64,000 bases of DNA from a virus, in the IMG/VR virus record IMGVR_UViG_3300033388_003553, positions 7,434 to 71,433 of that record, one strand, 5' to 3'. Position numbers and translations under genes: made by a program. Positions 5,635 through 29,086 of this stretch are shown piece after piece. The notes beneath the pieces are model-generated. The model did no database searches. It worked only from the letters and a program-made list of their open reading frames with translations, and was not told where the DNA came from. How positions within the stretch are numbered: position 1 is the first letter of the stretch; each line of letters begins with the position of its first letter.

Positions 5635-6399
5635 ATGTACGATTGGTGCATTAATAGGGAATTAAAAATAGTTGGCCTTGAAGAATATAAGGATGTTGAA
5701 TTTGATTTCTACACCAAATACATTAGTGAGGAAGAATTTAACACATCAATAAATAACCTTAGAAAAGAGAAGGTATTTGAAAGAATTGAGATTAAAGAAG
5801 GTGAATTACACCTTAAATCCGATAAGTACCTAGAGTTAAGGATGTACACATTAGTGCCATATAATCTACTTGGTATTCAGATGGGTATCCAACATGAACA
5901 TTCAGTTGTTCAAAATGTCGTTAACAATGTAATCGAAAAAATTATTTCTGGTGAAGAAATGGATGAAAAATTTAAGCTTTGGGCAACAGAATGGAAAACT
6001 TCTATTTTATTAAATGGTGGTACTTCAAATGAGGGACACATGGTTAGACATGGGTTTAAAGATATTTGGTATGTTGGGAGTATGCAGCAGTATTTAGAAA
6101 AATTAGTTAATGCAGGAATAAATATTTCCACATTTTATGAACCAGACTTAAATTCAATGCTTACTGGAATCTCATTCATTGTTGATGAAAGAGTTTTTAA
6201 TAGAAAACTTTATAAAGACTTTGTACCAACCCCTTACAATTTTTTAGTTGATGGGATTAATGAGGAAACAGTTAGGTGTTGGGAAGAAAATAATAATATG
6301 AATAAGGCTATTTGGCTCGACAACATTGGTGGAGAAAAAAATGAATTCTTAAGGGAGTTGTTAAACCCTAAAGGACCACTTAAATTAGCTAGGGGATAA
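5635..6399 (+). CDS. Phage peptidyl-tRNA hydrolase 2 (PTH2)-like protein
   Basis: MY..V..NL..IQ.GIQ..H, W...KT.ILLNGG and FYEPDLN...T motifs. Confidence 0.55.
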   Translation: MYDWCINRELKIVGLEEYKDVEFDFYTKYISEEEFNTSINNLRKEKVFERIEIKEGELHLKSDKYLELRMYTLVPYNLLGIQMGIQHEHSVVQNVVNNVIEKIISGEEMDEKFKLWATEWKTSILLNGGTSNEGHMVRHGFKDIWYVGSMQQYLEKLVNAGINISTFYEPDLNSMLTGISFIVDERVFNRKLYKDFVPTPYNFLVDGINEETVRCWEENNNMNKAIWLDNIGGEKNEFLRELLNPKGPLKLARG

Positions 6400-7033
6400 C
6401 GTTGTTTAATTAAAATACATTCATGATATGAAAACGATACTAGATGATTTAATTAATGAACAACAATTAATACTTAAGTATTTAGACTATAATTATGAAA
6501 TTGTGAGGTATTCTAATAGTTTCGAAATAAAAGAAAAAATAGTGATAAAACCACTTACGGTATTGATATATTTAATGACATAAAAGTTTATTATGGGTTA
6601 GGGGTTAGAATAATTGATATAGTTTTTGATGCTTGGTTAGAATCATACGACTCAAATAAAAACACAGTTAATTGGTTTAACACATCCGAAAGAAACTATT
6701 TTGGTGAACCAATTACTGAAATTCTAACAATACAGCGAAGAACAATTGATAGCCCAATGCGATTAGAAATAACATATAGTGCTAATACATTACATAGGTG
6801 TTATTATGAATTAACTTATCGAAGACAAATTATTAATTCATTAATACATCAAATAGTTGATACAATAGGTTACACTGCTGGGAGTAAACTTTATGGGTTA
6901 AATCCATTTAACGAGGTAACTTGTGTGATGCGTGGGCTTGGTTTTGAAACACAGGAAATTAGTACACCTAGTTTAGGTAAAAGATTCGTTTGGTACCACA
7001 CTAGAAATAGACAAACAAGACAACAAATAGGTT

Positions 7034-10731: not shown

Positions 10732-11043
10732 TTAATTGAAGAAAGGGTTTTCTTCAATTAACAATTGTATTGTATCACTTATCTTTTGACAATCTGATTC
10801 AAACTGATTAATATCCCCCTCATCTAAGATAAACCACTCACCTTCAACACGTTTAGTGGTGTGTTTTTTATGTAACCACGCTTCAACCTTTCTGTAATAT
10901 TCACAATCAAAATTTTTAACCAAAATTATTTCATCTGGACACCCAGTTTGTAATTCACGCAACCTATCTTTAACATTACGCCTAGTAACACCAATTTTAT
11001 AATAATTGGTGTCAATCATATTTAGCAAATATATTGTCCCCAT
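10732..11043 (-). CDS. GIY-YIG nuclease, T5orf172/MUG113 family
   Basis: IYLL...YYKIGVT...RLRELQTG...E..LH...EGEWF. Confidence 0.8.
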   Translation of the reverse strand: MGTIYLLNMIDTNYYKIGVTRRNVKDRLRELQTGCPDEIILVKNFDCEYYRKVEAWLHKKHTTKRVEGEWFILDEGDINQFESDCQKISDTIQLLIEENPFFN

Positions 11044-11472
11044 AATAATAATTATACCCATCTTTATTGAATTAGTCAATATTTATATATAACTTTATTG
11101 GTATGGTAGAATTAAAACAATTACACGAAGAGATTGCATCATTATTAAAAAAAGAATTTGGTTTAGATAAACTTGATATGGGTGATGGAGATTGTATCAA
11201 AGAATTGAATTTTAAATTAAAATCAGGTTGTGATGGGACAAAAATAAAGCAAATACTCAAAACACATTTTGGTAGCTCTTTGATATTCCATGCGTGTGAG
11301 ATGGGTGGGGTATTAGGTATTTTAATTGAAAATAATTGCAAATAAATTAGGAATACCCTAACATATATATTATCTTTGACGTAACTAACAATTTTGGGCA
11401 CACACTAGTTACTAACGCTCCGTGTATCATACATGTGTAAATATGAATAAACATTAATTAAATAGTTGAACT

Positions 11473-11763
11473 ATGAAGAACACAGAAAAAACATCACAAC
11501 AATTAGGTGTAAGTAGATTTAAAACATTGACAGCTAAGGAAGCTAGGAAGCAATCTTTGTCTGTTGCGGAAAGATTGGAGATTAGAGTTTTTATGGATAT
11601 GATTAAGGATGCTATAGCTCACGGCAGAACTTATTGTTATTTTAGTAGACATATCTCGGAAAGACAATTAACATTACTTAATGCCCTAGGTTATAAGGTA
11701 ACTAATTCATATGATTTAACATTAACAAATAGTCAAAATTATAAAACAAAAATATTATGGTAG
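11473..11763 (+). CDS. Hypothetical protein with a cassette-derived 5' region
   Basis: 11413-11488 resembles 63259-63334. Confidence 0.55.
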   Translation: MKNTEKTSQQLGVSRFKTLTAKEARKQSLSVAERLEIRVFMDMIKDAIAHGRTYCYFSRHISERQLTLLNALGYKVTNSYDLTLTNSQNYKTKILW

Positions 11764-11802
11764 ATTTACAATCAATTTTTACAAAGTTAAAACACTTAAA
11801 CA

Positions 11803-12276
11803 ATGAGATTATACGCAACATTTGAAGGGGTAAAAGACATCGACCCAACGAAATACGATAAATTCTATGGAAATCTACAATTGATGTGGTCCAACGTTAA
11901 AGATGATACTGGTTCACCACTTAACGGTGTATTTCATTGTAATAGAGCCAAATTATTTGAATCACTAACACTTAGAAAAGGTAATCGATATGTTTTGGGT
12001 TGTAAGGAACTAAAAGGTCAAAAAATATACTTCCCATTATCGGTGATGAACACCAGAAAAAACCCAACATGTGATATCATGAGGAAAGCTTTTGGTGATT
12101 ACACATTTATTAAGGGTAAATTTAAAGGAAAGTGGTTAAAGAAGATGTCTCATTTGGAGAAAGATGAGCTTAAGAGATACTTATTATACCTAGGTAAAAA
12201 TACTAATAATGAAGCCACAGTGATAAACGTATTGAGTGTATTAAAAATATTAGATGATGAACAAAAACAATATTAA
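11803..12276 (+). CDS. Hypothetical protein
   Basis: ORF track. Confidence 0.55.
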   Translation: MRLYATFEGVKDIDPTKYDKFYGNLQLMWSNVKDDTGSPLNGVFHCNRAKLFESLTLRKGNRYVLGCKELKGQKIYFPLSVMNTRKNPTCDIMRKAFGDYTFIKGKFKGKWLKKMSHLEKDELKRYLLYLGKNTNNEATVINVLSVLKILDDEQKQY

Positions 12277-12362
12277 TATAAACATCTAAATGTAATTAAT
12301 TACAAACATAACTAATTAATAGTCAACACATTAAAAATTAAATTAAAAATAATTACAAAAAC

Positions 12363-12394
12363 ACTTGTTTTTTAATAAAACTTTTGTATATTTG
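12363..12394 (+). promoter_or_regulatory. Bacteroidota-type sigma70 promoter of tRNA operon 1
   Basis: ACTTG...TTTTG-TATATTTG (-7 TAnnTTTG); near-identical at 16143-16174 and 26394-26425. Confidence 0.7.
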
Positions 12395-12452
12395 TAGTAT
12401 ATTTAAAACAAAGGGGTAACTCTTAATACAAACAAAAACAAAAACATTTTCA

Positions 12453-12536
12453 ATGCAAACAATTGTAAACATATTAACACTTAACTTAGTCTTATGCCTA
12501 TCGGTATTAGACGGGTCGAGCTATGTGTTTACGTAA
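12453..12536 (+). CDS. Attenuator leader peptide of tRNA operon 1 (MQTIVNILTLNLVLCLSVLDGSSYVFT)
   Basis: 27 codons, Leu/Val/Cys-rich; 3' end overlaps the antiterminator segment 12515-12530. Confidence 0.75.
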   Translation: MQTIVNILTLNLVLCLSVLDGSSYVFT

Positions 12537-12559
12537 GTATAGAAAACTTAAACATATTC

Positions 12560-12593
12560 AAGCTCGATTCAGTTACTGAATCGAGCTTTTTTT
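12560..12593 (+). terminator. Intrinsic terminator (attenuator) of tRNA operon 1
   Basis: AAGCTCGATTCAG-TTA-CTGAATCGAGCTT followed by a T tract. Confidence 0.85.
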
Positions 12594-12641
12594 ATGTCTA
12601 ATATGTCTTGGTTTGTCGAAAAGGTAGGTCTTTGAAATAAT

Positions 12642-12731
12642 GTCTCAGTGCTCCGAGTGGTCGAAGGGGGTGGGTTGCAACCCCACCAAAGCGTAGTTGC
12701 TTCATCATAGGTTCGAATCCTATCTGGGACT
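12642..12731 (+). tRNA. tRNA-Cys(GCA) with long variable arm
   Basis: Acceptor GTCTCAG/CTGGGAC, anticodon GTGGG-TT GCA AC-CCCAC, TTCGAAT loop, U73. Confidence 0.8.
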
Positions 12732-12910
12732 CATGAATTGCAAAAAGTTTGTACAAAATGTGGGTAAGAAAATGAAGTGTAGGTGAGATTCTAACTCACC
12801 TACACTTCATACCGCTTCCGACTGGTCGGACTTTTGAATTTATAAACTTAAGGGGTGGATGAAGTCCCATAAGAACTAAAAAGATTAGGTAGACTGCAAG
12901 TCCACCAAAT

Positions 12911-12982
12911 GCTCTGTGGATGTGATGGTCAGCATACTTGTTTTACATACAAGGTGAGAAGGTTCGATTCCTTCACGGAGTA
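12911..12982 (+). tRNA. tRNA-Val(TAC)
   Basis: CTTGT-TT TAC AT-ACAAG; GGTTCGATTCC. Confidence 0.85.
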
Positions 12983-12992
12983 CAACACAAAT

Positions 12993-13066
12993 AGGGGTGT
13001 AGCCGAATTGGTATAGGCAACAAGCTTAGACCTTGAAATCTGTGGGTTCGAATCCCACCACCCCCA
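12993..13066 (+). tRNA. tRNA-Leu(TAG), short variable region
   Basis: CAAG-CT TAG AC-CTTG; GGGTTCGAATCCC. Confidence 0.75.
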
Positions 13067-13079
13067 CTGCCTAAACTTC

Positions 13080-13227
13080 GCTACGTGGAGCATTGGAGAG
13101 TCATGGCAAGGATTTAATTTTAGCGGGTAAGCAACCTAGGAACGTGAGACCCAAGTTTATTAAATTCGACTCAAAGCTCGCTGGGGGCATATCCCAGAGG
13201 CAACAGGTTCGATTCCTGTCGTAGCAA
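13080..13227 (+). ncRNA. tRNA-like RNA with a large insertion in place of the anticodon arm
   Basis: GCTACG/CGTAGC acceptor and ACAGG-TTCGATT-CCTGT T arm. Confidence 0.45.
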
Positions 13228-13238
13228 CAATAATATAT

Positions 13239-13312
13239 TGCGGGGTGGACTGGAGTGGCTCCAGCTGGGTCTCATAAGCCCAATCACGGGGGTTCGAATC
13301 CCCCTCCCGCTA
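13239..13312 (+). tRNA. tRNA-Met(CAT), initiator-like
   Basis: TGGGT-CT CAT AA-GCCCA; unpaired 1:72. Confidence 0.8.
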
Positions 13313-13321
13313 CTAACACAT

Positions 13322-13406
13322 GGCCTTGTGGTGAAATTGGTAAACACAGGGGACTTAAAATCCCCCGCCCATTTAGGGCTTGTCGGTTCGAATCCGACCA
13401 AGGCTA
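13322..13406 (+). tRNA. tRNA-Leu(TAA)
   Basis: GGGGA-CT TAA AA-TCCCC; long variable arm. Confidence 0.9.
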
Positions 13407-13430
13407 CAAAGCACAAGTACTTGTGCTGGA

Positions 13431-13521
13431 TTAGATATGATGGAATTGGTAGACATGACCCCTTAGTCGGGGTGGAGAAAACTTTTGTCACTCCGTGTAG
13501 GTTCGAGTCCTACTATTTAAC
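13431..13521 (+). tRNA. Degenerate Leu-type tRNA (TAG-like)
   Basis: Leu-type D arm GATGGAATTGGTAGACAT, long variable arm and T arm; irregular anticodon loop. Confidence 0.5.
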
Positions 13522-13523
13522 CC

Positions 13524-13607
13524 CCCCAAGTGGTGAAATTGGTAAACACACAACCTTGAGGTGGTTGTGTCCGAAAGGATGTGTGGGTTCGACTCCCACC
13601 TTGGGGA
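13524..13607 (+). tRNA. tRNA-Leu(GAG)
   Basis: CCCCAAG/CTTGGGG; CAACC-TT GAG GT-GGTTG. Confidence 0.9.
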
Positions 13608-14413
13608 CAAATAAAAGTAAATATTATTTGTTTGAATTAATAATTATTAGATAATATTTATTAATATGAATAGATTTATTTTAATAGTGGTAATATTAAT
13701 TTCACTCACAACATCATGTAGTTCATCACAACATATTTGTGATGCTTATGTATCAGATAACACAACAATAGATGACAATAAAATATGAAAAAATTTAATA
13801 GAGTATCATCGATAATCGTATTTATACTAGGATTAATTGGTAGTATAAGTTTTTGGGTATTTATTGTACAAGGAGATGTATTTGAGGATTGGTACCCACT
13901 AGTTTCGATGTTCGTATCAACACATTCGGCATTAATAGGTGTTATTTTTTATGAGATAATGAGGTACACAGGTAAGTCATTCAAAGAATTATTCAAAAAA
14001 AATAATTAAACTTTTGGTTAAATAGAATATTATCCTTATATTTGAATAAGAAAGTCGATTCAATTGATATTTATTGATGAGTTGGTTTAAGTTAAACTAA
14101 AACATAAAAAGTATGGGAATTATAACATTTATTTTATTAGTAATATTAATTATAATTAGGGTTATTGAGTGTTATTTGTTTATGAAAAAGGTGAGTAAAG
14201 CTTGTCGAGCATATGACATGAAACACATAGAAAATAATGAATTATTACTTTTGGAGATGTTAGAACGTGAAGATTACTATATTACTAGTGATTGGTCAGC
14301 ATACAATTTCTTATATTTAAAAGGACCAAACCCTTTGTGTTTGTTTTTCTCTGTAAAACCAATCACTATTGAAGCACAATATAATAAAAAAGTTGTTGAA
14401 AAACTAAACACAT

Positions 14414-15061
14414 ATGAAATTAACTGAAGCATACAACAAAGTCATTCTAGATGAATTTTGGAACGGATTAGAAGAAGAACTTCAATTAGATGAATCTGAG
14501 AGTGGATTAAAAAACCTAATCGGGCAAGCAAACGAAATTATATTCAAGAAATTTCAAATAAACCCAAAAGATAGAGAATACTGCATAGTTGGTTCAGCAA
14601 GATTATATTTATACCCACAACTTAGGGATGCCTTTGGGTTAGAAGGAACTATTGGTGATTTAGATATGGTAATACCAGACAAGAAACACTGGATACAAGC
14701 TGGTTTAGAAGAAAACTGGAATAAAGGTGGGGTTTATAGACCAACTGATGATGGTTCAATTGAAGCGTTTAATGTGTGGGACCCAGCAAAAGCTGGTGGG
14801 GAATACGCTGACGTTCAAGTAAGGTCAACCCAAGAAGTAATCAAAGATGGTACACTAATTAATGGTTATTACTTTATGTCATTACAAGATATTATAGATT
14901 ATAAAATGTCTATGAATAGAGAAAAAGAACAAGATATTGTTAACCTTATTTCAGCTTATCAAAAAAGTGGGTCATCAAACAGAATGGAACTACTTAGAAG
15001 AATGGCCAAAATAATTGGCTTGAATAAAACCAAAGAATTCTTAGGTAAAGTAGCTAAATAA
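14414..15061 (+). CDS. Nucleotidyltransferase-like protein
   Basis: IVGSA...GDLDMV...IEAF (GS...DxD...E). Confidence 0.5.
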   Translation: MKLTEAYNKVILDEFWNGLEEELQLDESESGLKNLIGQANEIIFKKFQINPKDREYCIVGSARLYLYPQLRDAFGLEGTIGDLDMVIPDKKHWIQAGLEENWNKGGVYRPTDDGSIEAFNVWDPAKAGGEYADVQVRSTQEVIKDGTLINGYYFMSLQDIIDYKMSMNREKEQDIVNLISAYQKSGSSNRMELLRRMAKIIGLNKTKEFLGKVAK

Positions 15062-15987: not shown

Positions 15988-16225
15988 AATCACTAATCAA
16001 AAATTACCCATAGATATAGTTTTAATCATCAGAACAATAAGTATTAGAAACTTTCTTATAAAAAAATAAAAAATAAGTTACCCCTTTAAACCCCCATAAA
16101 AACTAGGAACTTAAAAAAAAGTATAAAAATATTTTCAAAAATACTTGCTATTTAAAATAACTTTTGTATCTTTGTACCATACTTATAAACAACGAGACTA
16201 ATTAAGTCTCACAAAAAATAAAAAA

Positions 16226-16315
16226 ATGAACACAGTATTTAACATATTTGATTTTAACTTTGAAGCAGCCGAGGCGGATTTTAGCCTAGGGTGGTCGAGT
16301 ATTGTCAAAAGTTAA
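16226..16315 (+). CDS. Attenuator leader peptide of tRNA operon 2 (MNTVFNIFDFNFEAAEADFSLGWSSIVKS)
   Basis: 29 codons, Phe/Asp/Glu/Ala-rich; contains the antiterminator GTGGTCG 16291-16297. Confidence 0.78.
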   Translation: MNTVFNIFDFNFEAAEADFSLGWSSIVKS

Positions 16316-16338
16316 GTATTTAAACATACAACATTTAC

Positions 16339-16370
16339 AAGCCGACCACGAAAGTGAGTTGGCTTTTTTT
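16339..16370 (+). terminator. Intrinsic terminator (attenuator) of tRNA operon 2
   Basis: AAGCCGACCAC-GAAA-GTGAGTTGGCTT followed by a T tract. Confidence 0.85.
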
Positions 16371-16380
16371 ATGTTAATAT

Positions 16381-16452
16381 GTAACCTTGGAAGTAGTGGT
16401 CCTTCGTCTGGTTGAAGCCCAGAAAAGCTCGGTTCGAATCCGAGAGGTTGCA
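16381..16452 (+). tRNA. tRNA-Phe(GAA)
   Basis: TCTGG-TT GAA GC-CCAGA; CTCGG-TTCGAAT-CCGAG. Confidence 0.75.
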
Positions 16453-16460
16453 CAAAACAT

Positions 16461-16532
16461 AGCCCCATCGACTAGCGGTTAGGTCGCCACCCTCTCAAGG
16501 TGGAAACATCGGTTCGAATCCGATTGGGGTCA
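16461..16532 (+). tRNA. tRNA-Glu(CTC)
   Basis: CCACC-CT CTC AA-GGTGG. Confidence 0.85.
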
Positions 16533-16568
16533 CTAAGATTTGGTTCTTTGACGTATTGAAATGATTAT

Positions 16569-16643
16569 GGTGTGGTAGCTCAGAGGTAGAGCAGTAGGTT
16601 GAAAACTTACGTGTCGCTGGTTCGATTCCAGCTCGCACCACCA
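16569..16643 (+). tRNA. tRNA-Phe(GAA)
   Basis: GTAGG-TT GAA AA-CTTAC; encoded CCA. Confidence 0.9.
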
Positions 16644-16646
16644 AAT

Positions 16647-16721
16647 GCTCGGTTGGTCTAACGGCTAGGACGTGTGGTTTTCAGCCATAAGCTAGGGGTT
16701 CGATTCCCCTACCGAGTACCA
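16647..16721 (+). tRNA. tRNA-Glu(TTC)
   Basis: TGTGG-TT TTC AG-CCATA; encoded CCA. Confidence 0.85.
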
Positions 16722-16768
16722 AGTGTCAGTTACTAGTGGTTCTGAACGAAATAAAATGCTACTAAATT

Positions 16769-16840
16769 CGCCCCATCGTCTAACGGTTAGGACGCTAGGT
16801 TTTCAACCTAGAAATAGGAGTTCGATTCTCCTTGGGGTGG
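16769..16840 (+). tRNA. tRNA-Glu(TTC)
   Basis: CTAGG-TT TTC AA-CCTAG. Confidence 0.85.
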
Positions 16841-16891
16841 CTGGACATACTTTCGTACTTTTTCTCTATATTTATATAGAAAAAATATATT

Positions 16892-17506
16892 ATGGCGAGA
16901 AAGGAAAAAAAGTATCACTTTATCTATAAGACAACTAATAAGTTATCGGGTAGATATTACATTGGAATGCATAGTACTAATAACTTGGACGATGGTTATA
17001 TGGGTTCTGGTAATCGATTAAGGTTAGCAATAAGGAAACATGGTAAAGAAAACTTTATTAGAGAGATTCTAGAGTATTGCAATACTAGAGATGAATTAAG
17101 AATACAAGAAGCAAAAGTAATTACTTTAGAAGAAGTTGCGAAGGAAGAGTGTATGAATCTAGCTGTGGGTGGTGAAGGTGGTTATACGAATTCTGGTGGA
17201 CCAGAAGCTTTCGCTAAGAAAGTAAAAGAAGATAAAGAGTTTGGTGATAGGGTAAAAAAGACTCTTTTAGGGAATGTAAAGAAAGCCCATAAGAATGGTA
17301 ATATACCTTATGATAATTTTCAAGGTAAAACACATTCTGACGAAACTAAAAATAAGATGAGTGAGTCTAGTAAAGGACAAGGTAAAGGTTCAGCAAACTC
17401 ACAATTCGGAACTTGCTGGATTACCAACGGTGAAGAAGTTAAGAAGATTAAAAAAGAAAACCTCGATTCTTATATCAGTGATGGTTGGAGACGAGGAAGA
17501 AAATAA
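16892..17506 (+). CDS. GIY-YIG homing endonuclease with NUMOD3 motif, inside the tRNA operon
   Basis: FIYKTTN...YYIGMHS...GYMGSG; GKTHSDETKNKMSES. Confidence 0.85.
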   Translation: MARKEKKYHFIYKTTNKLSGRYYIGMHSTNNLDDGYMGSGNRLRLAIRKHGKENFIREILEYCNTRDELRIQEAKVITLEEVAKEECMNLAVGGEGGYTNSGGPEAFAKKVKEDKEFGDRVKKTLLGNVKKAHKNGNIPYDNFQGKTHSDETKNKMSESSKGQGKGSANSQFGTCWITNGEEVKKIKKENLDSYISDGWRRGRK

Positions 17507-17581
17507 TAATATGGGGTCATAGTTTAAATGGCTAAAATAGGGGTTTTATGAGTATGACTGATAGGAAAGACTATCATTTAC

Positions 17582-17657
17582 GGTTACGTGGTCTAGTCTG
17601 GTCAAGGATGTCTGCCTGTCACGCAGAAGGTCGAGGGTTCGAATCCCTTCGTAACCG
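17582..17657 (+). tRNA. tRNA-Asp(GTC)
   Basis: TCTGC-CT GTC AC-GCAGA. Confidence 0.9.
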
Positions 17658-17790
17658 CTCGGTGTCACACAATGTCTCCAAGGACGCTTTGACGTTTAAA
17701 GAGCTTGGTAAGGTAACATAGGAAGTGTGTTGGATAAATTGAAAGTGACTTGTAGTGAAGTGTGATGACGCTACAAAATCCAACGAATAT

Positions 17791-17864
17791 GGGCCATTGG
17801 TGAAGCTGGCTATCACACCGCTCTTGCACAGCGGAGTCCTCGGTTCGAAGCCGTGATGTGTCCA
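17791..17864 (+). tRNA. tRNA-Ala(TGC)
   Basis: CCGCT-CT TGC AC-AGCGG; imperfect acceptor stem. Confidence 0.75.
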
Positions 17865-26307: not shown

Positions 26308-26470
26308 AACACCCTCAAACACAGACAATACGGGGGATTCATAAGTAAATTTTTAAAACAAAATAAAATAAATTAAAAAAAAATACAAAAAAAACTTGCT
26401 AATTGTAAATCTTTTTGTATATTTGTACTAGTTATTAAAAACAAGAGATTATTTCTCTAATAAAAAAAAA

Positions 26471-26572
26471 ATGAATTTAATAGGAATGACATATCAACCG
26501 AAAACGAAACAGCAAGGCGGGAAGCCTAGTAGAACGGGTATGTTATATCTAAAAAGTACTAATTGGGATTAA
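26471..26572 (+). CDS. Attenuator leader peptide of tRNA operon 3 (MNLIGMTYQPKTKQQGGKPSRTGMLYLKSTNWD)
   Basis: 33 codons; codons 7-19 are all T/Y/Q/P/K/G; antiterminator CGGGTATGTTA 26535-26545. Confidence 0.78.
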   Translation: MNLIGMTYQPKTKQQGGKPSRTGMLYLKSTNWD

Positions 26573-26594
26573 CCAATACGATACTTAAAATAAC

Positions 26595-26624
26595 AAACCC
26601 GACCACACTAGTCGGGTTTTTTTT
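26595..26624 (+). terminator. Intrinsic terminator (attenuator) of tRNA operon 3
   Basis: AAACCCGAC-CACACTA-GTCGGGTTT followed by a T tract. Confidence 0.85.
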
Positions 26625-26692: not shown

Positions 26693-26765
26693 AGCGCAGT
26701 AGCTTAATGGCTAGAGCACCTAGTTTGGGACTAGGGAAGTGTCAGTTCGAATCTGACTTGTGCTA
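26693..26765 (+). tRNA. tRNA-Pro(TGG)
   Basis: CCTAG-TT TGG GA-CTAGG. Confidence 0.85.
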
Positions 26766-26919
26766 CTATAAATACTAAGTGTTCTAACTAAGGTGAGTAT
26801 TAGTATTAATAACAAGTAACTGGGAAGTACAACCAATGAAAAGTATTATGAAAGTATAAACAGAATGAAGATATCGGGAGAGCCGAGGATATATGGTGCA
26901 AGCCCTATCTTAGTAAATT

Positions 26920-26993
26920 CGAGAAGTGACTAAGGATTTAAGCACGGGGGGTCTGGAGCCTTCTGTTAGTCGGTTCGATTCCGACCTTCTCGA
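26920..26993 (+). tRNA. Atypical tRNA-Pro(TGG)-like
   Basis: CGAGAAG/CTTCTCG-A, loop TC TGG AG, good T arm, poor D arm. Confidence 0.5.
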
Positions 26994-26999
26994 CTAAAT

Positions 27000-27099
27000 G
27001 CGGAAATAGTGTAATGATAGCACGGGGCTAGTTTAGGTCCAAGTGGGATTAGTCAAATAGTACTCAATGTGACTAATGGTTTGATTCCCCCTTTCCGCT
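27000..27099 (+). pseudogene. Degenerate Gly-type tRNA
   Basis: GCGGAAA/TTTCCGC-T with Gly-like D arm; anticodon and T arms disrupted. Confidence 0.4.
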
Positions 27100-27133
27100 C
27101 AATAATAACTAAGTAATATAAATTTAATAAATT

Positions 27134-27211
27134 CGGGATGTTATGCAGATGGCTATACAACGGTACCTTGGACGTATCGGTTCGCTGGTTCGAATCCAGC
27201 CATCCCGACCA
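27134..27211 (+). tRNA. tRNA-Pro(TGG)
   Basis: CGGGATG/CATCCCG-ACCA; CT TGG AC. Confidence 0.85.
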
Positions 27212-27271
27212 TAATATTATTACTAATATATAGATATGTTGATTATATTAATGTGTGTATAATTAGATTAT

Positions 27272-27358
27272 TTTGGGATATGCAAATTGGCGAAGCAGCT
27301 AGACTTTGAATCTAGTCAGATAAAGTTCACATTGTAGGTTCGAACCCTACTCCCAAAA
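27272..27358 (+). tRNA. tRNA-Gln(TTG), long variable region
   Basis: CTAGA-CT TTG AA-TCTAG. Confidence 0.8.
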
Positions 27359-27365
27359 CAAATAT

Positions 27366-27441
27366 TGCCTTGTCGTCTACGTGCTGGTTAGGACGCAAGT
27401 TTTTGACACTTGAAAAGAAGGTTCGACCCCTTCTGAGGCAA
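27366..27441 (+). tRNA. tRNA-Gln(TTG)
   Basis: CAAGT-TT TTG AC-ACTTG. Confidence 0.8.
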
Positions 27442-27806
27442 CAAAATTAAATTAATAAAACACTTGCTTTATTGGTTTATAGTAGTAATTTTGCAAAAAA
27501 AAAGAAAATGTTAAAAAAAGAAATAAAAGTATATGATACAACAACAACACCATTAGAAATAACACAACATGCGTTGGTTAACTTTCTGTATGGTTTTTTA
27601 AATGGTTTGGTTATTATAACAATGATAATTGGAAATCCATGGTTAATACTCACAGCATACTATGTATTAAAGCAAGTGGAGAGTAAAGTATTAAATAGAA
27701 ATAAATACACTAGTAAATTTGGGAAGAGGTTCTTATTTCCAATACCTAGTACGTTAGGATTCTTATTAGGTTGGTATTTAGGAACTTTCTTTAAATAAAG
27801 AAACGA

Positions 27807-27878
27807 TTGTGATGAAGTGTAATGGTTGCACGGGTGGCGTTGGGCTGCCAAGATTTGGTTCGAATCCAAACTCACAAC
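27807..27878 (+). tRNA. Atypical tRNA-Gln(TTG)-like
   Basis: GGTGG-CG TTG GG-CTGCC; TTTGG-TTCGAAT-CCAAA. Confidence 0.5.
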
Positions 27879-27961
27879 TAGATAATAATTTAAAGAATGG
27901 TTACAGCAAAGTTAAAAAAGTTCAATTTTTGTTTGAAAACAACCACACCATTCTGTTATTT

Positions 27962-28043
27962 GGGTGTATTGAGCAATTGGCTGCTCAACAGACTGTAAAT
28001 CTGTCGTCTTCGGACATTGGGGGTTCGAACCCCTCTACACCCA
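27962..28043 (+). tRNA. tRNA-Tyr(GTA)
   Basis: ACAGA-CT GTA AA-TCTGT; long variable arm. Confidence 0.9.
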
Positions 28044-28048
28044 CACAA

Positions 28049-28224
28049 TTTGGTTAGCACTATACAAAATGAACTAGGAAGTGCAACTGGGGATGTTGTA
28101 GATACGGTAGGCTACACCAGACTGTAAATCTGGACCTTTAATTAGGCGTTGTGGGTTCGAATCCCTCCAGCCCCACATTTGACATTTTTGGTTAGCACTA
28201 GACAAAATGAACTAGGAAGTGCAA
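28049..28224 (+). repeat. 38-nt direct repeat (28049-28086 and 28187-28224) following each tRNA-Tyr
   Basis: TTTGGTTAGCACTA(T/G)ACAAAATGAACTAGGAAGTGCAA, one mismatch. Confidence 0.85.
28089..28175 (+). tRNA. tRNA-Tyr(GTA)
   Basis: CCAGA-CT GTA AA-TCTGG. Confidence 0.85.
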
Positions 28225-28227
28225 TTT

Positions 28228-28301
28228 GGCTCCATAGTTTAATTGGCTTAAAACACTAGACTTGTAATCTTGAGACCTCAGTTCGATTCTGAGTGGAGCC
28301 T
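28228..28301 (+). tRNA. tRNA-Thr(TGT)
   Basis: GGCTCCA/TGGAGCC; CT TGT AA. Confidence 0.85.
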
Positions 28302-28428
28302 CAACAAAAATATACTGGGTTTTGACACCATTTTACCGTTAGGAAACGGGACATAAAGGGATTTAAAAAGTCCTGTCCCCGAAACAGAATAATAAATAGG
28401 TGTGACGGATGCCGAGAGAGGCATATTT

Positions 28429-28499
28429 GCATCATAAGTGTTACGATAGCATATGGGCTTTCCACGTCCAAGGCGAGGGTTTGACTCCCTCATGGTGCA
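28429..28499 (+). tRNA. tRNA-Gly(TCC)
   Basis: TGGGC-TT TCC AC-GTCCA. Confidence 0.75.
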
Positions 28500-28538
28500 C
28501 AACTTAGTTTATCAGTTCTAAAATTAAAAACTGATAAT

Positions 28539-28611
28539 GCGACAGTAGCTCAAAGGTTAGAGCACCATATTACCAATATGGGGGTTGAGATTTCGAAATT
28601 CTTCTGTCGCT
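28539..28611 (+). tRNA. tRNA-Gly(ACC), rare A34 anticodon
   Basis: GCGACAG/CTGTCGC-T; CCATA-TT ACC AA-TATGG. Confidence 0.7.
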
Positions 28612-29011
28612 CAAATATGAGTATGCTTACTCTTGTAGTGAAAGGGTAGCCCCACGTAAGGGGTGTGCTAAAAAAGCTAAGGACTGAAAAACAAAAATCT
28701 ACTGAGTACGTATTAAGTAGTTTGGAGTGAAATAGGTGACGGTTCCGATGTAAATCGGGTCTTGAGGTGCGAATCCCCACATACTCACTAAATATCCATA
28801 ACAAGTCGGTTAATGTGTGACACTAGGTTGGTAAATAAATCTAGTGTTACAGGATTTAATACTATGGGGTTCGACTCCCCGAATGAACACGAAAATAAAA
28901 TCATAAATAATTAAAAATAAAAACGATGAAAAATTTATTGAAACTTAAACACAAAAGTAAACAGTAAAGCATTCGGCTCAAAAGAGTTACGGGTGCTAAT
29001 AATAAAATTAT

Positions 29012-29086
29012 TCCCCCATAGCTCAGAGGCAGAGCACTCGACTTTTAATCGAGGGGTCGTGATATCGTAATTCACTGGGGGGACCA
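29012..29086 (+). tRNA. tRNA-Lys(TTT)
   Basis: CTCGA-CT TTT AA-TCGAG; encoded CCA; atypical T loop. Confidence 0.8.

What the first reader, a model, noticed from the sequence alone, without database searches (positions are those of the whole stretch)
12453..13607. Operon 1 leader uses Leu codons read by each encoded Leu isoacceptor
The leader Leu codons are TTA x4, CTT and CTA; the operon encodes Leu anticodons TAA, GAG and TAG. GTA x2 matches Val(TAC) and TGC matches Cys(GCA). The antiterminator TCGAGCT-ATGTGTTT (12516-12530) pairs with AAACATAT...AGCTCGA (12550-12567), which excludes the terminator 12560-12593. This suggests sensing at the isoacceptor level rather than the amino-acid level.
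Basis: partly seen in the sequence, partly recalled or inferred. Interest (0 to 1): 0.75.

Follow-up and report, generated by a model that had tools for sequence, protein, structure and literature searches.

The report
Leader-peptide attenuator gating phage tRNA genes
A large uncultured phage puts a tiny translated test gene, rich in leucine, valine and cysteine codons, and a switchable transcription stop in front of its Cys/Val/Leu tRNA genes, so it probably makes these tRNAs when ribosomes read those codons slowly; sensing of individual leucine tRNA species is not shown.

Summary
A 27-codon ORF (12453-12536) has Leu codons TTA x4, CTT and CTA. It is followed by a 13-bp intrinsic terminator (12560-12593) and by tRNA genes Cys(GCA), Val(TAC), Leu(TAG), Leu(TAA) and Leu(GAG).

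It is one of three paralogous units in the window. Each has a Bacteroidetes-type promoter, a leader ORF, an antiterminator/terminator pair and a tRNA operon. Each leader is enriched only in the amino acids of its own operon: 11/26, 12/28 and 19/32, against 1-6 for the other two window sets. I found 18 intact units of four types in related phage and metagenome contigs, including a fourth type for His/Trp/Ser/Asn/Ile/Met/Arg.

Best reading: ribosome-mediated attenuation that feeds decoding capacity back onto tRNA transcription.

The isoacceptor claim is not supported beyond chance. The Leu pattern has P = 0.33 under genome codon usage. Codon diversity loses significance after correcting for GC3. 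Relatives give counter-examples.

Six literature searches listed no report for tRNA genes. This scan has noted the same kind of unit before on other phage DNA.

The parts
12364..12396 (+). Promoter of tRNA operon 1 (Bacteroidetes type: TTG at 12365-12367, TAnnTTTG at 12387-12394, 19-nt spacer)
   Evidence: Regex hit. The same 33-nt extended pattern heads all three tRNA operons of the window and those of relatives. No other hit to this promoter regex lies between here and the tRNAs.
12411..12424 (+). Small 5' hairpin just after the predicted transcription start
   Evidence: Read from the sequence. The relative G001 has a perfect version. Analogous hairpins occur in leaders 2 and 3. Its function is inferred.
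12453..12536 (+). Leader ORF, 27 codons plus TAA, with an A-rich upstream region and no Shine-Dalgarno sequence
   Evidence: Of the 26 residues after the start, 6 are Leu, 4 Val and 1 Cys. Homologous ORFs occur in 7 other contigs.
12456..12503 (+). Sensing zone (codons 2-17): a ribosome stalled here leaves region 2 free
   Evidence: Folding with a ribosome mask. Occupancy of the terminator's 5' arm by the antiterminator is about 0.8 with the A site at codons 2-16 (0.7 at 17). It is 0.3-0.5 from codon 18 to the stop. The zone holds 8 of its 16 codons as Leu/Val/Cys (read).
12465..12487 (+). Region 1: pairs with region 2 in the untranslated minimum-energy fold
   Evidence: 12465-12474 pairs with 12523-12532, 12480-12482 with 12518-12520, and 12484-12487 with 12513-12516.
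12512..12535 (+). Region 2: 5' strand of the antiterminator, lying in the last 8 codons of the ORF
   Evidence: Covariation with region 3: 93% of cells paired, 4 of 10 pairs changed on both sides, slid controls 18-47%.
12545..12571 (+). Region 3: 3' strand of the antiterminator, including the terminator's 5' arm
12560..12593 (+). Intrinsic terminator: 13-bp stem 12560-12588, 3-nt loop, run of 7 T
   Evidence: -18.7 kcal/mol. Covariation. It starts 23 nt after the stop codon, as in 6 of the 12 leaders measured.
12642..13608 (+). tRNA operon 1: Cys(GCA) 12642-12732; Val(TAC) 12911-12983; Leu(TAG) 12993-13067; doubtful tRNA-like gene 13079-13228; Met(CAT) 13239-13313; Leu(TAA) 13322-13407; Leu-like gene with 6-nt anticodon loop 13431-13523; Leu(GAG) 13524-13608
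   Evidence: ARAGORN and Rfam.
16144..16370 (+). Paralogous attenuator of operon 2: promoter, leader ORF 16226-16315, terminator 16339-16370. It precedes Phe, Glu, Phe, Glu, Glu, Asp and Ala tRNAs (16381-17863).
26395..26624 (+). Paralogous attenuator of operon 3: promoter, leader ORF 26471-26572, terminator 26596-26624. It precedes Pro x3, Gln x2, Tyr x2, Thr, Gly x2 and Lys tRNAs (26693-29086).

Best explanation
The stretch is a ribosome-mediated (leader-peptide) transcription attenuator that gates a phage tRNA operon. It is one of a family of paralogous units, each written in the amino acids of the tRNAs behind it.

Proposed sequence of events:
1. Transcription starts at a Bacteroidetes-type promoter, and a ribosome loads on the 27-codon leader.
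2. If the Leu, Val and Cys codons of codons 2-17 are decoded quickly, the ribosome reaches the last codons and the stop. There it covers region 2 (12512-12535). The 13-bp terminator then forms and the transcript ends before the tRNA genes.
3. If the ribosome stalls in the zone because the charged tRNAs are scarce, it melts the region 1:2 pairing but leaves region 2 free. Region 2 pairs with the terminator's 5' arm and the polymerase runs into the Cys/Val/Leu tRNA genes.

The product of the operon, once charged, relieves the stall, so the loop is homeostatic.

Shown here: the anatomy, the mutually exclusive helices and their covariation, and the operon-specific amino-acid bias in four leader types.

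Inferred: that the ORF is translated, the direction of the switch, and that tRNA supply rather than amino-acid supply is the usual signal. Resolution is shown at the amino-acid level only.
For: Anatomy in the window. All three tRNA operons share the order promoter, A-rich leader, 27-33-codon ORF, antiterminator, terminator, tRNAs. No further hit to the promoter regex lies before the tRNAs.

Operon-specific composition.
- Leader 1 against set C/V/L/M: 11/26.
- Leader 2 against F/E/D/A: 12/28.
- Leader 3 against P/Q/Y/T/G/K: 19/32.
- Binomial P = 2.6e-3, 1.2e-2 and 1.1e-3. Every off-diagonal comparison has P > 0.3.
- Among 134 other short ORFs of the genome, 11, 0 and 0 reach the observed fractions.

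A fourth type passes the same test.
- L041: 22/26 against H/W/S/N/I/M/R (P = 2e-8; 0 of 135 short ORFs; set taken from the homologous operon of G001).
- With the tRNAs on the same contig: L012 23/31 and L064 26/34.
- Other same-contig cases: L120 14/23, L086 12/28, L066 20/32.

Position. Matched residues sit in codons 2-17.
- Window: 30/48 in the zone against 12/38 elsewhere, Fisher P = 0.005.
- Four further loci: 45/64 against 27/53, P = 0.037.

Structure.
- An antiterminator duplex is found in 12 of 12 leaders (-12.3 to -24.4 kcal/mol, z -0.4 to -6.7) and in 4 of 4 further ones.
- Region 2 pairs best with its own terminator arm in 9 of 14 leaders. Own arms average -13.0 kcal/mol and foreign arms -8.7.
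- Both helices covary.
- The two operon-2 leaders differ by compensating changes in region 2 and both terminator arms.
- Ribosome-mask folding gives the expected switch near codon 17.
Against: - No expression data. No RNA run holds the stretch, so translation of the ORF and regulated read-through are untested.
- Operon 1 alone is the weakest case. Leu/Val-rich short ORFs are common in this AT-rich genome: 11 of 134 score as high.
- In the thermodynamic model the antiterminator also forms with no ribosome (occupancy 0.84). In the operon 3 and 4 types it re-forms with the ribosome at the stop codon. The model therefore needs kinetics or steric exclusion that I did not compute.
- Antiterminator z-scores are weak for three leaders: -1.4, -1.3 and -0.4.
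- In the close relative G001, two of four leaders lack the start codon and the sensing codons, so the ORF is dispensable there.
- A more distant relative (L003) shows tRNAs with no such leader in the stretch held.
- The relatives are homologous, so their P values are not independent.
Confidence: 0.8

Rival explanations
1. One reading: the leader is tuned codon by codon. Each Leu isoacceptor encoded in the operon (TAA, GAG, TAG) has its own reporter codon, so loss of one single isoacceptor opens the operon.
For: - In the window each of the three ARAGORN-called Leu isoacceptors has a cognate codon. The same holds in L034 and L022.
- All 8 op1-type leaders seen keep one CTT, at least one CTR and at least two TTR codons.
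- Pooled matched codons of the three window leaders use 28 distinct codons against 23.1 expected (P = 0.013). Unmatched codons do not (31 against 32).
Against: - P = 0.33 for the Leu pattern under genome usage.
- For operon 1 alone, distinct codons are 7 against 6.2 expected (P = 0.37). The pooled excess falls to P = 0.12 after correction for GC3.
- G001 encodes Leu(CAA) with no TTG in its leader. L120 has CTT x2 and TTG but only Leu(TAA) and Leu(TAG) are called. GTT, GTC, GCC, GCT, CCT and ACT codons occur where only a U34 tRNA is encoded.
- The invariant CTT pairs with region 2 in the untranslated fold.
- The relatives are not independent samples.
Confidence: 0.2
2. Same attenuator, but the physiological signal is amino-acid supply (charging), as in biosynthetic operons, rather than tRNA abundance or tRNA damage.
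For: The mechanism senses charged tRNA and cannot tell the two apart. No call separates them.
Against: Making more tRNA does not relieve an amino-acid shortage, so such a loop would have no corrective effect (inference). The leader types track the tRNA content of each operon, up to seven amino acids with no shared biosynthetic pathway.
Confidence: 0.2
3. The terminator is a constitutive, leaky stop, or the end of a separate small transcript. The short ORF is either untranslated or encodes a small hydrophobic peptide with a function of its own. The codon match is coincidence.
For: Leader 1 is hydrophobic, and 11 of 134 random short ORFs are as rich in C/V/L/M. G001 does without the ORF in two operons.
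Against: - Four leader types with unlike chemistry each match only their own operon.
- Amino-acid composition is kept while the peptide sequence drifts.
- Region 2 covaries with the terminator arm.
- The stop-to-terminator spacing is conserved.
Confidence: 0.07
4. A ribosome-independent RNA switch, T-box-like or bound by a protein or a tRNA, selects between terminator and antiterminator.
For: The alternative helices alone would also serve such a switch.
Against: - No T-box or other leader family is listed in Rfam, even at E <= 10. The best leader-type matches are far below threshold: Trp_leader 14.9 bits against 41, L10_leader 19.7 against 44.
- Such a switch would not explain the intact ORFs with operon-matched composition, nor the concentration of matched codons upstream of region 2.
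Confidence: 0.04

Closest known systems
Multivalent leader-peptide attenuators of enterobacterial amino-acid operons (ilvGMEDA leader for Ile/Leu/Val, thr leader for Thr/Ile); recalled, not taken from a call
   Same: A promoter and short leader ORF with several kinds of regulatory codons. The antiterminator and intrinsic terminator exclude each other. The position of the ribosome decides between them.
   Different: - The controlled genes are tRNA genes, not biosynthetic enzymes.
- The unit is on a phage.
- The promoter is of Bacteroidetes type and there is no Shine-Dalgarno sequence.
- Up to seven amino acids are covered by one leader.
- A family of paralogous units shares a 3' module but carries different sensing codons.
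leu operon leader with its run of rare CUA codons; recalled
   Same: A Leu-codon leader in which codon choice, and hence the isoacceptor, is thought to set sensitivity.
   Different: Here the Leu codons are scattered and follow genome usage. No bias in codon choice is shown.
pheST attenuator (pheM leader), which controls an aminoacyl-tRNA synthetase; recalled
   Same: Leader-peptide attenuation of a component of the translation machinery.
   Different: The product is a protein enzyme, and only one amino acid is sensed.
T-box riboswitch (Rfam RF00230)
   Same: Reads tRNA status and chooses between terminator and antiterminator.
   Different: It acts by direct RNA-tRNA contact without a ribosome. 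No T-box match appears here, and the leader here is an ORF.
Units noted earlier by this scan on other phage DNA (e1-2978539, e1-6154969, e1-5985818, e1-5870437, e1-6011797, e1-5375044)
   Same: Leader ORFs matched to the tRNA block behind them, wired to a terminator. Those agents also found no published account.
   Different: They lie on other genomes, and no look-alike of this stretch is in the index. I did not test their claims on their DNA.

Membership tests
Ribosome-mediated leader-peptide transcription attenuator | Promoter followed by a short ORF inside the leader transcript | tested here: met
   The promoter pattern at 12364-12396 and the ORF at 12453-12536. The same layout occurs at 16144 and 26395.
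Ribosome-mediated leader-peptide transcription attenuator | Intrinsic terminator between the ORF and the controlled genes | tested here: met
   A 13-bp stem and 7 T at 12560-12593. It covaries in relatives.
Ribosome-mediated leader-peptide transcription attenuator | Antiterminator that shares a strand with the terminator | tested here: met
   12512-12535 pairs with 12545-12571: -23.8 kcal/mol, z -5.8. Covariation: 93% of cells paired, 4 pairs changed on both sides. Own terminator arms pair better than foreign ones.
Ribosome-mediated leader-peptide transcription attenuator | Ribosome position decides: a stall upstream frees the antiterminator, and a ribosome at the end of the ORF blocks it | tested here: inconclusive
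   Mask folding gives the expected switch for operon types 1 and 2. In types 3 and 4 the pairing returns with the ribosome at the stop codon. With no ribosome the antiterminator also forms. This is an equilibrium model only.
Ribosome-mediated leader-peptide transcription attenuator | Leader enriched in codons of the amino acids relevant to the controlled genes | tested here: met
   The leader-by-operon matrix is diagonal. Same-contig cases are, and the concentration in the zone. Operon 1 is the weakest (11 of 134 short ORFs as high).
Ribosome-mediated leader-peptide transcription attenuator | Leader is translated and termination responds to charged-tRNA supply | not testable with these tools
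   No RNA run is listed. This needs a bench test.
Ribosome-mediated leader-peptide transcription attenuator | Controlled genes are amino-acid biosynthesis or synthetase genes (all described members, as recalled) | tested here: not met
   The genes downstream are tRNA genes only. I therefore file this as a variant, not an ordinary member.
T-box riboswitch | Stem I with a specifier loop, and the conserved T-box sequence in the antiterminator | tested here: not met
   No RF00230 match at the gathering score in the window, nor at E <= 10 in 12350-12650.
Rfam amino-acid operon leader families (Leu, His, Thr, Trp leaders) | Match to the family's covariance model | tested here: not met
   The only one listed is Trp_leader at 14.9 bits against a gathering score of 41.
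   True for TAA, TAG and GAG in the window, but P = 0.33 by chance. Two further Leu-like genes have unclear anticodons.
   Operon 1: P = 0.37. Pooled: P = 0.013, falling to 0.12 after GC3 correction.
   G001 has Leu(CAA) but no TTG in its leader. L120 has CTT x2 and TTG without a called G34/A34 or CAA tRNA. Some of the contigs are truncated.

The most novel reading that the evidence does not exclude
The phage family carries a modular tRNA-supply sensor. One 3' switch module (region 2, a fixed spacer, the terminator) has been copied in front of each tRNA operon, and its 5' coding part has been rewritten to the amino acids of that operon. Loss of those tRNAs, for example through host anticodon nucleases or infection-induced tRNA decay, then stalls the leader ribosome and triggers resupply of exactly that tRNA block.
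Probability: 0.45. Interest if true: 0.85.

Novelty: new variant of a known kind. Interest (0 to 1): 0.74.

Why it matters
How phages control their tRNA genes is largely unknown. Current work treats phage tRNAs as codon supplements or as replacements for tRNAs destroyed by host defences.

A leader-peptide attenuator in front of tRNA genes would be direct feedback from decoding capacity to tRNA transcription. It extends a classic amino-acid control logic to the translation machinery itself. It would also make phage tRNA expression conditional, switched on when those codons are read slowly.

The four leader types, each spelled in a different amino-acid set, are a natural experiment. Swapping leaders, codons or tRNAs in a reporter would test the idea directly.

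The units could also serve as compact sensors of the availability of specific tRNAs.

Tried and rejected
- Cultured-phage collection: a blastn search with 11000-14500 matched only tRNA genes, with no relative of the leader.
- L003, a 59%-identity relative of a neighbouring protein: its tRNAs and a tmRNA have no leader or terminator unit in the stretch held.
- Public sequencing runs: no RNA holder listed. I did not lay reads.
- Known RNA families: none near threshold.
- My recollection that E. coli pheV has a Phe-rich leader: the K-12 sequence upstream of pheV shows no such ORF. Passages of PMC7049720 describe a 3-4-nt leader. Recollection dropped.
- Literature: six searches listed no report of leader-peptide control of tRNA genes. 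PMC2965389 has no occurrence of the tRNA terms searched. The one 'tRNA operon' passage of PMC3082878 is unrelated. I saw listings and passages only. Paywalled papers and supplements were not seen.
- Alternative genetic codes: reading TGA or TAG as sense adds little ORF coverage, and TAA is the main stop, ending 50 of 61 long ORFs.
- ARAGORN with introns: it calls a Leu(CAA) with a 59-nt intron at 13079-13228. The D and anticodon arms are poor and there is no Rfam match at gathering, so I did not count it.
- MAFFT put L120 out of register in the terminator. L120 was left out of the covariation counts (6 of 7 op1-type sequences used).
That comparison therefore covers only 7 leaders, from counts already printed.
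Full report
**What is there**

The window is about 30% G+C phage DNA. It belongs to a 71,433-bp virus record. It carries 23 ARAGORN tRNA genes in three clusters, plus two more found only by Rfam.

The finding covers the first cluster and its leader.
- a 27-codon ORF at 12453-12536;
- Leu codons TTA x4, CTT and CTA;
- Cys codon TGC.

Next comes a 13-bp hairpin with a run of seven T at 12560-12593. The tRNA genes follow: Cys(GCA), Val(TAC), Leu(TAG), Met(CAT), Leu(TAA), a Leu-like gene with a 6-nt anticodon loop, and Leu(GAG).

That duplex spans 12512-12535 with 12545-12571, at -23.8 kcal/mol and z = -5.8. It consumes the terminator's 5' arm. In the untranslated minimum-energy fold, region 2 is instead held by codons 5-12 of the ORF, and the terminator forms (-48.1 kcal/mol, z = -6.45).

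**Surroundings**

A Bacteroidetes-type promoter (TTG, 19 nt, TAnnTTTG) lies at 12364-12396. No further hit to this promoter regex lies before the tRNAs, so on that criterion the tRNAs depend on reading through the terminator.

The other two tRNA clusters have the same layout:
- promoter at 16144, ORF 16226-16315, terminator 16339-16370, then Phe, Glu, Asp and Ala tRNAs;
- promoter at 26395, ORF 26471-26572, terminator 26596-26624, then Pro, Gln, Tyr, Thr, Gly and Lys tRNAs.

In all three window units the terminator starts 23 nt after the stop codon. The three leaders look alike only in their 3' parts: region 2, the stop codon and what follows it (read). They appear to be paralogues with different coding fronts.

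**The leaders match their own operons**

I counted residues after the start codon that belong to the amino acids of each operon's tRNAs.
- Leader 1: 11/26.
- Leader 2: 12/28.
- Leader 3: 19/32.
- Against the other two window sets the counts are 2 and 6, 3 and 3, and 5 and 1.
- Binomial P on the diagonal is 2.6e-3, 1.2e-2 and 1.1e-3. Every off-diagonal P is above 0.3.
- Against the 134 other short ORFs (24-36 codons) of the genome, 11, 0 and 0 reach the observed fraction.

Operon 1, the subject of this finding, is therefore the weakest single case. The pattern across operons carries the argument.

Matched residues are concentrated in codons 2-17: 30/48 against 12/38 elsewhere, Fisher P = 0.005. 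Ribosome-mask folding identifies codons 2-17 as the zone in which a stalled ribosome leaves the antiterminator free.

**Relatives**

A neighbouring protein led to a 353-kb phage contig with terminal repeats (G001) and 65 tRNA matches.
- Its leader 1 differs at two residues.
- Its leader 2 differs at nine residues. Four of them involve members of the Phe/Glu/Asp/Ala set: two stay inside it and two leave it.
- Its leader 2 has different sequences in region 2 and in both terminator arms, and these still pair.

Scanning for the shared promoter pattern gave 13 stretches in viral contigs and 24 in metagenome contigs. A looser pattern gave 118 stretches, of which 80 were listed. I examined 84 promoter hits; 5 were followed by a tRNA within 700 nt, and 4 of those had a leader and terminator.

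In all I saw 18 intact units, one partial unit and two truncated ones:
- 7 of type 1: window, G001, L021, L022, L034, L038, L120, plus L035 cut by its contig end;
- 3 of type 2: window, G001, L086;
- 5 of type 3: window, L025 (the same as L037), L026, L033, L066;
- 3 of a fourth type: L041, L012, L064.

The fourth type is an independent test of the idea. Its operon encodes His, Trp, Ser, Asn, Ile, Met and Arg tRNAs, and its leaders are written in just those residues.
- L041: 22/26 (P = 2e-8; set taken from G001).
- L012: 23/31, with the tRNAs on the same contig.
- L064: 26/34.
- Other same-contig cases: L120 14/23, L086 12/28, L066 20/32.

**Structure in relatives**

- An antiterminator duplex is found in 12 of 12 leaders and in 4 of 4 further ones.
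- In a cross-matrix, region 2 pairs best with its own terminator arm in 9 of 14 leaders. Own arms average -13.0 kcal/mol and foreign arms -8.7.
- On an alignment of 6 type-1 sequences, the antiterminator helix has 93% of cells paired and 4 of 10 pairs changed on both sides. Slid controls give 18-47%.
- The terminator helix has 91% of cells paired, with 4 of 11 pairs changed on both sides.
- L120 was left out because MAFFT placed it out of register.

**Evidence against, told in full**

- There is no expression evidence.
- In the equilibrium model the antiterminator forms even with no ribosome. In types 3 and 4 it returns with the ribosome at the stop codon. The model needs kinetic or steric arguments that I did not compute.
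- Three antiterminator z-scores are weak.
- In G001 the leaders of types 3 and 4 have lost their start codon and sensing codons to a promoter cassette, but keep region 2 and the terminator. The classical model would make these constitutively open. It also shows that the ORF is not indispensable.
- The same promoter class drives a tmRNA-like gene and other RNAs without any leader.

**The isoacceptor claim**

The three Leu tRNAs together read all six Leu codons, so 'read by an encoded isoacceptor' cannot fail.

- The sharper claim is that each isoacceptor is represented. This has P = 0.33 under genome usage (TTA 0.59, CTT 0.14, TTG 0.12, CTA 0.12).
- Operon 1's matched codons use 7 distinct codons against 6.2 expected (P = 0.37).
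- Pooled over the three leaders the figure is 28 against 23.1 (P = 0.013).
- The leaders are richer in G/C-ending codons in matched and unmatched positions alike. With that allowed for, P = 0.12.
- Relatives give counter-examples. G001 has Leu(CAA) without TTG in its leader. L120 has CTT x2 and TTG with only Leu(TAA) and Leu(TAG) called. NNY codons occur where only a U34 tRNA is encoded.
- The CTT kept in all type-1 leaders pairs with region 2.

Two earlier notes of this scan on other phages reached the same view on synonymous codons.

**Comparison and novelty**

The unit works like the multivalent leader-peptide attenuators of enterobacterial amino-acid operons (recalled). It meets the sequence-level features I could test: the leader ORF, the terminator, the exclusive antiterminator and the regulatory codons.

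It differs in what it controls. No Rfam leader family or T-box matches. Six literature searches listed no account of such control for tRNA genes. My one recalled candidate, E. coli pheV, did not hold up.

This scan has noted the same kind of unit on other phage genomes. None of those is a look-alike of this stretch.

**Verdict**

- The attenuator reading is well supported (0.8).
- Isoacceptor-level tuning is not shown (0.2).
- I class it as a new variant of a known kind.

Noticed in passing
window 12642-12732, 12993-13067, 13079-13228, 13431-13523, 28539-28612: Unusual tRNA genes: a 91-nt tRNA-Cys with a long variable arm; a 75-nt short-arm tRNA with the Leu anticodon TAG; a tRNA-like gene with good acceptor and T arms but an insertion of about 60 nt; a Leu-like gene with a 6-nt anticodon loop; and a Gly tRNA with anticodon ACC.
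   Followed up: partly
window 27366-27441, 28429-28499; also about 26999-27099 and 28700-28890: Two tRNAs found by Rfam but not by ARAGORN. By eye they read as Gln(TTG) and Gly(TCC). There are further tRNA-like stretches that no tool called.
   Followed up: no
window 16892-17506: A GIY-YIG/NUMOD3 homing-endonuclease-like ORF sits inside tRNA operon 2, between the Glu and Asp tRNAs. The 353-kb relative has no such ORF there.
   Followed up: partly
L007:2706-2876 and L004:11279-11449 (G001): Two leaders of the close relative are truncated at the 5' end. An identical promoter cassette abuts mid-leader. Region 2 and the terminator are kept. These may be constitutively open variants.
   Followed up: partly
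L002:11498-11570 (G001): A tRNA with anticodon TTA, which would read the TAA stop codon, lies inside operon 2 of the relative. The window's own genome fits the standard code.
   Followed up: partly
L031, L004:2806 onward, L039, L054: The same extended promoter class precedes a tmRNA-like gene and other long structured RNAs, with no leader ORF or terminator.
   Followed up: no
L004:11468-11641, L012 (minus strand; reverse-complement coordinates 6225-6413), L041 after 794: A conserved 57-62-residue ORF lies between the type-4 terminator and the first tRNA.
   Followed up: no
window 12411-12424, about 16193-16212, about 26442-26458: Each leader transcript begins with a small hairpin just after the predicted start site. 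It may stabilise the 5' end.
   Followed up: no
window 27464-27797: An ORF of 96 codons with its own promoter-like site interrupts tRNA operon 3, between the Gln and Tyr tRNAs.
   Followed up: no
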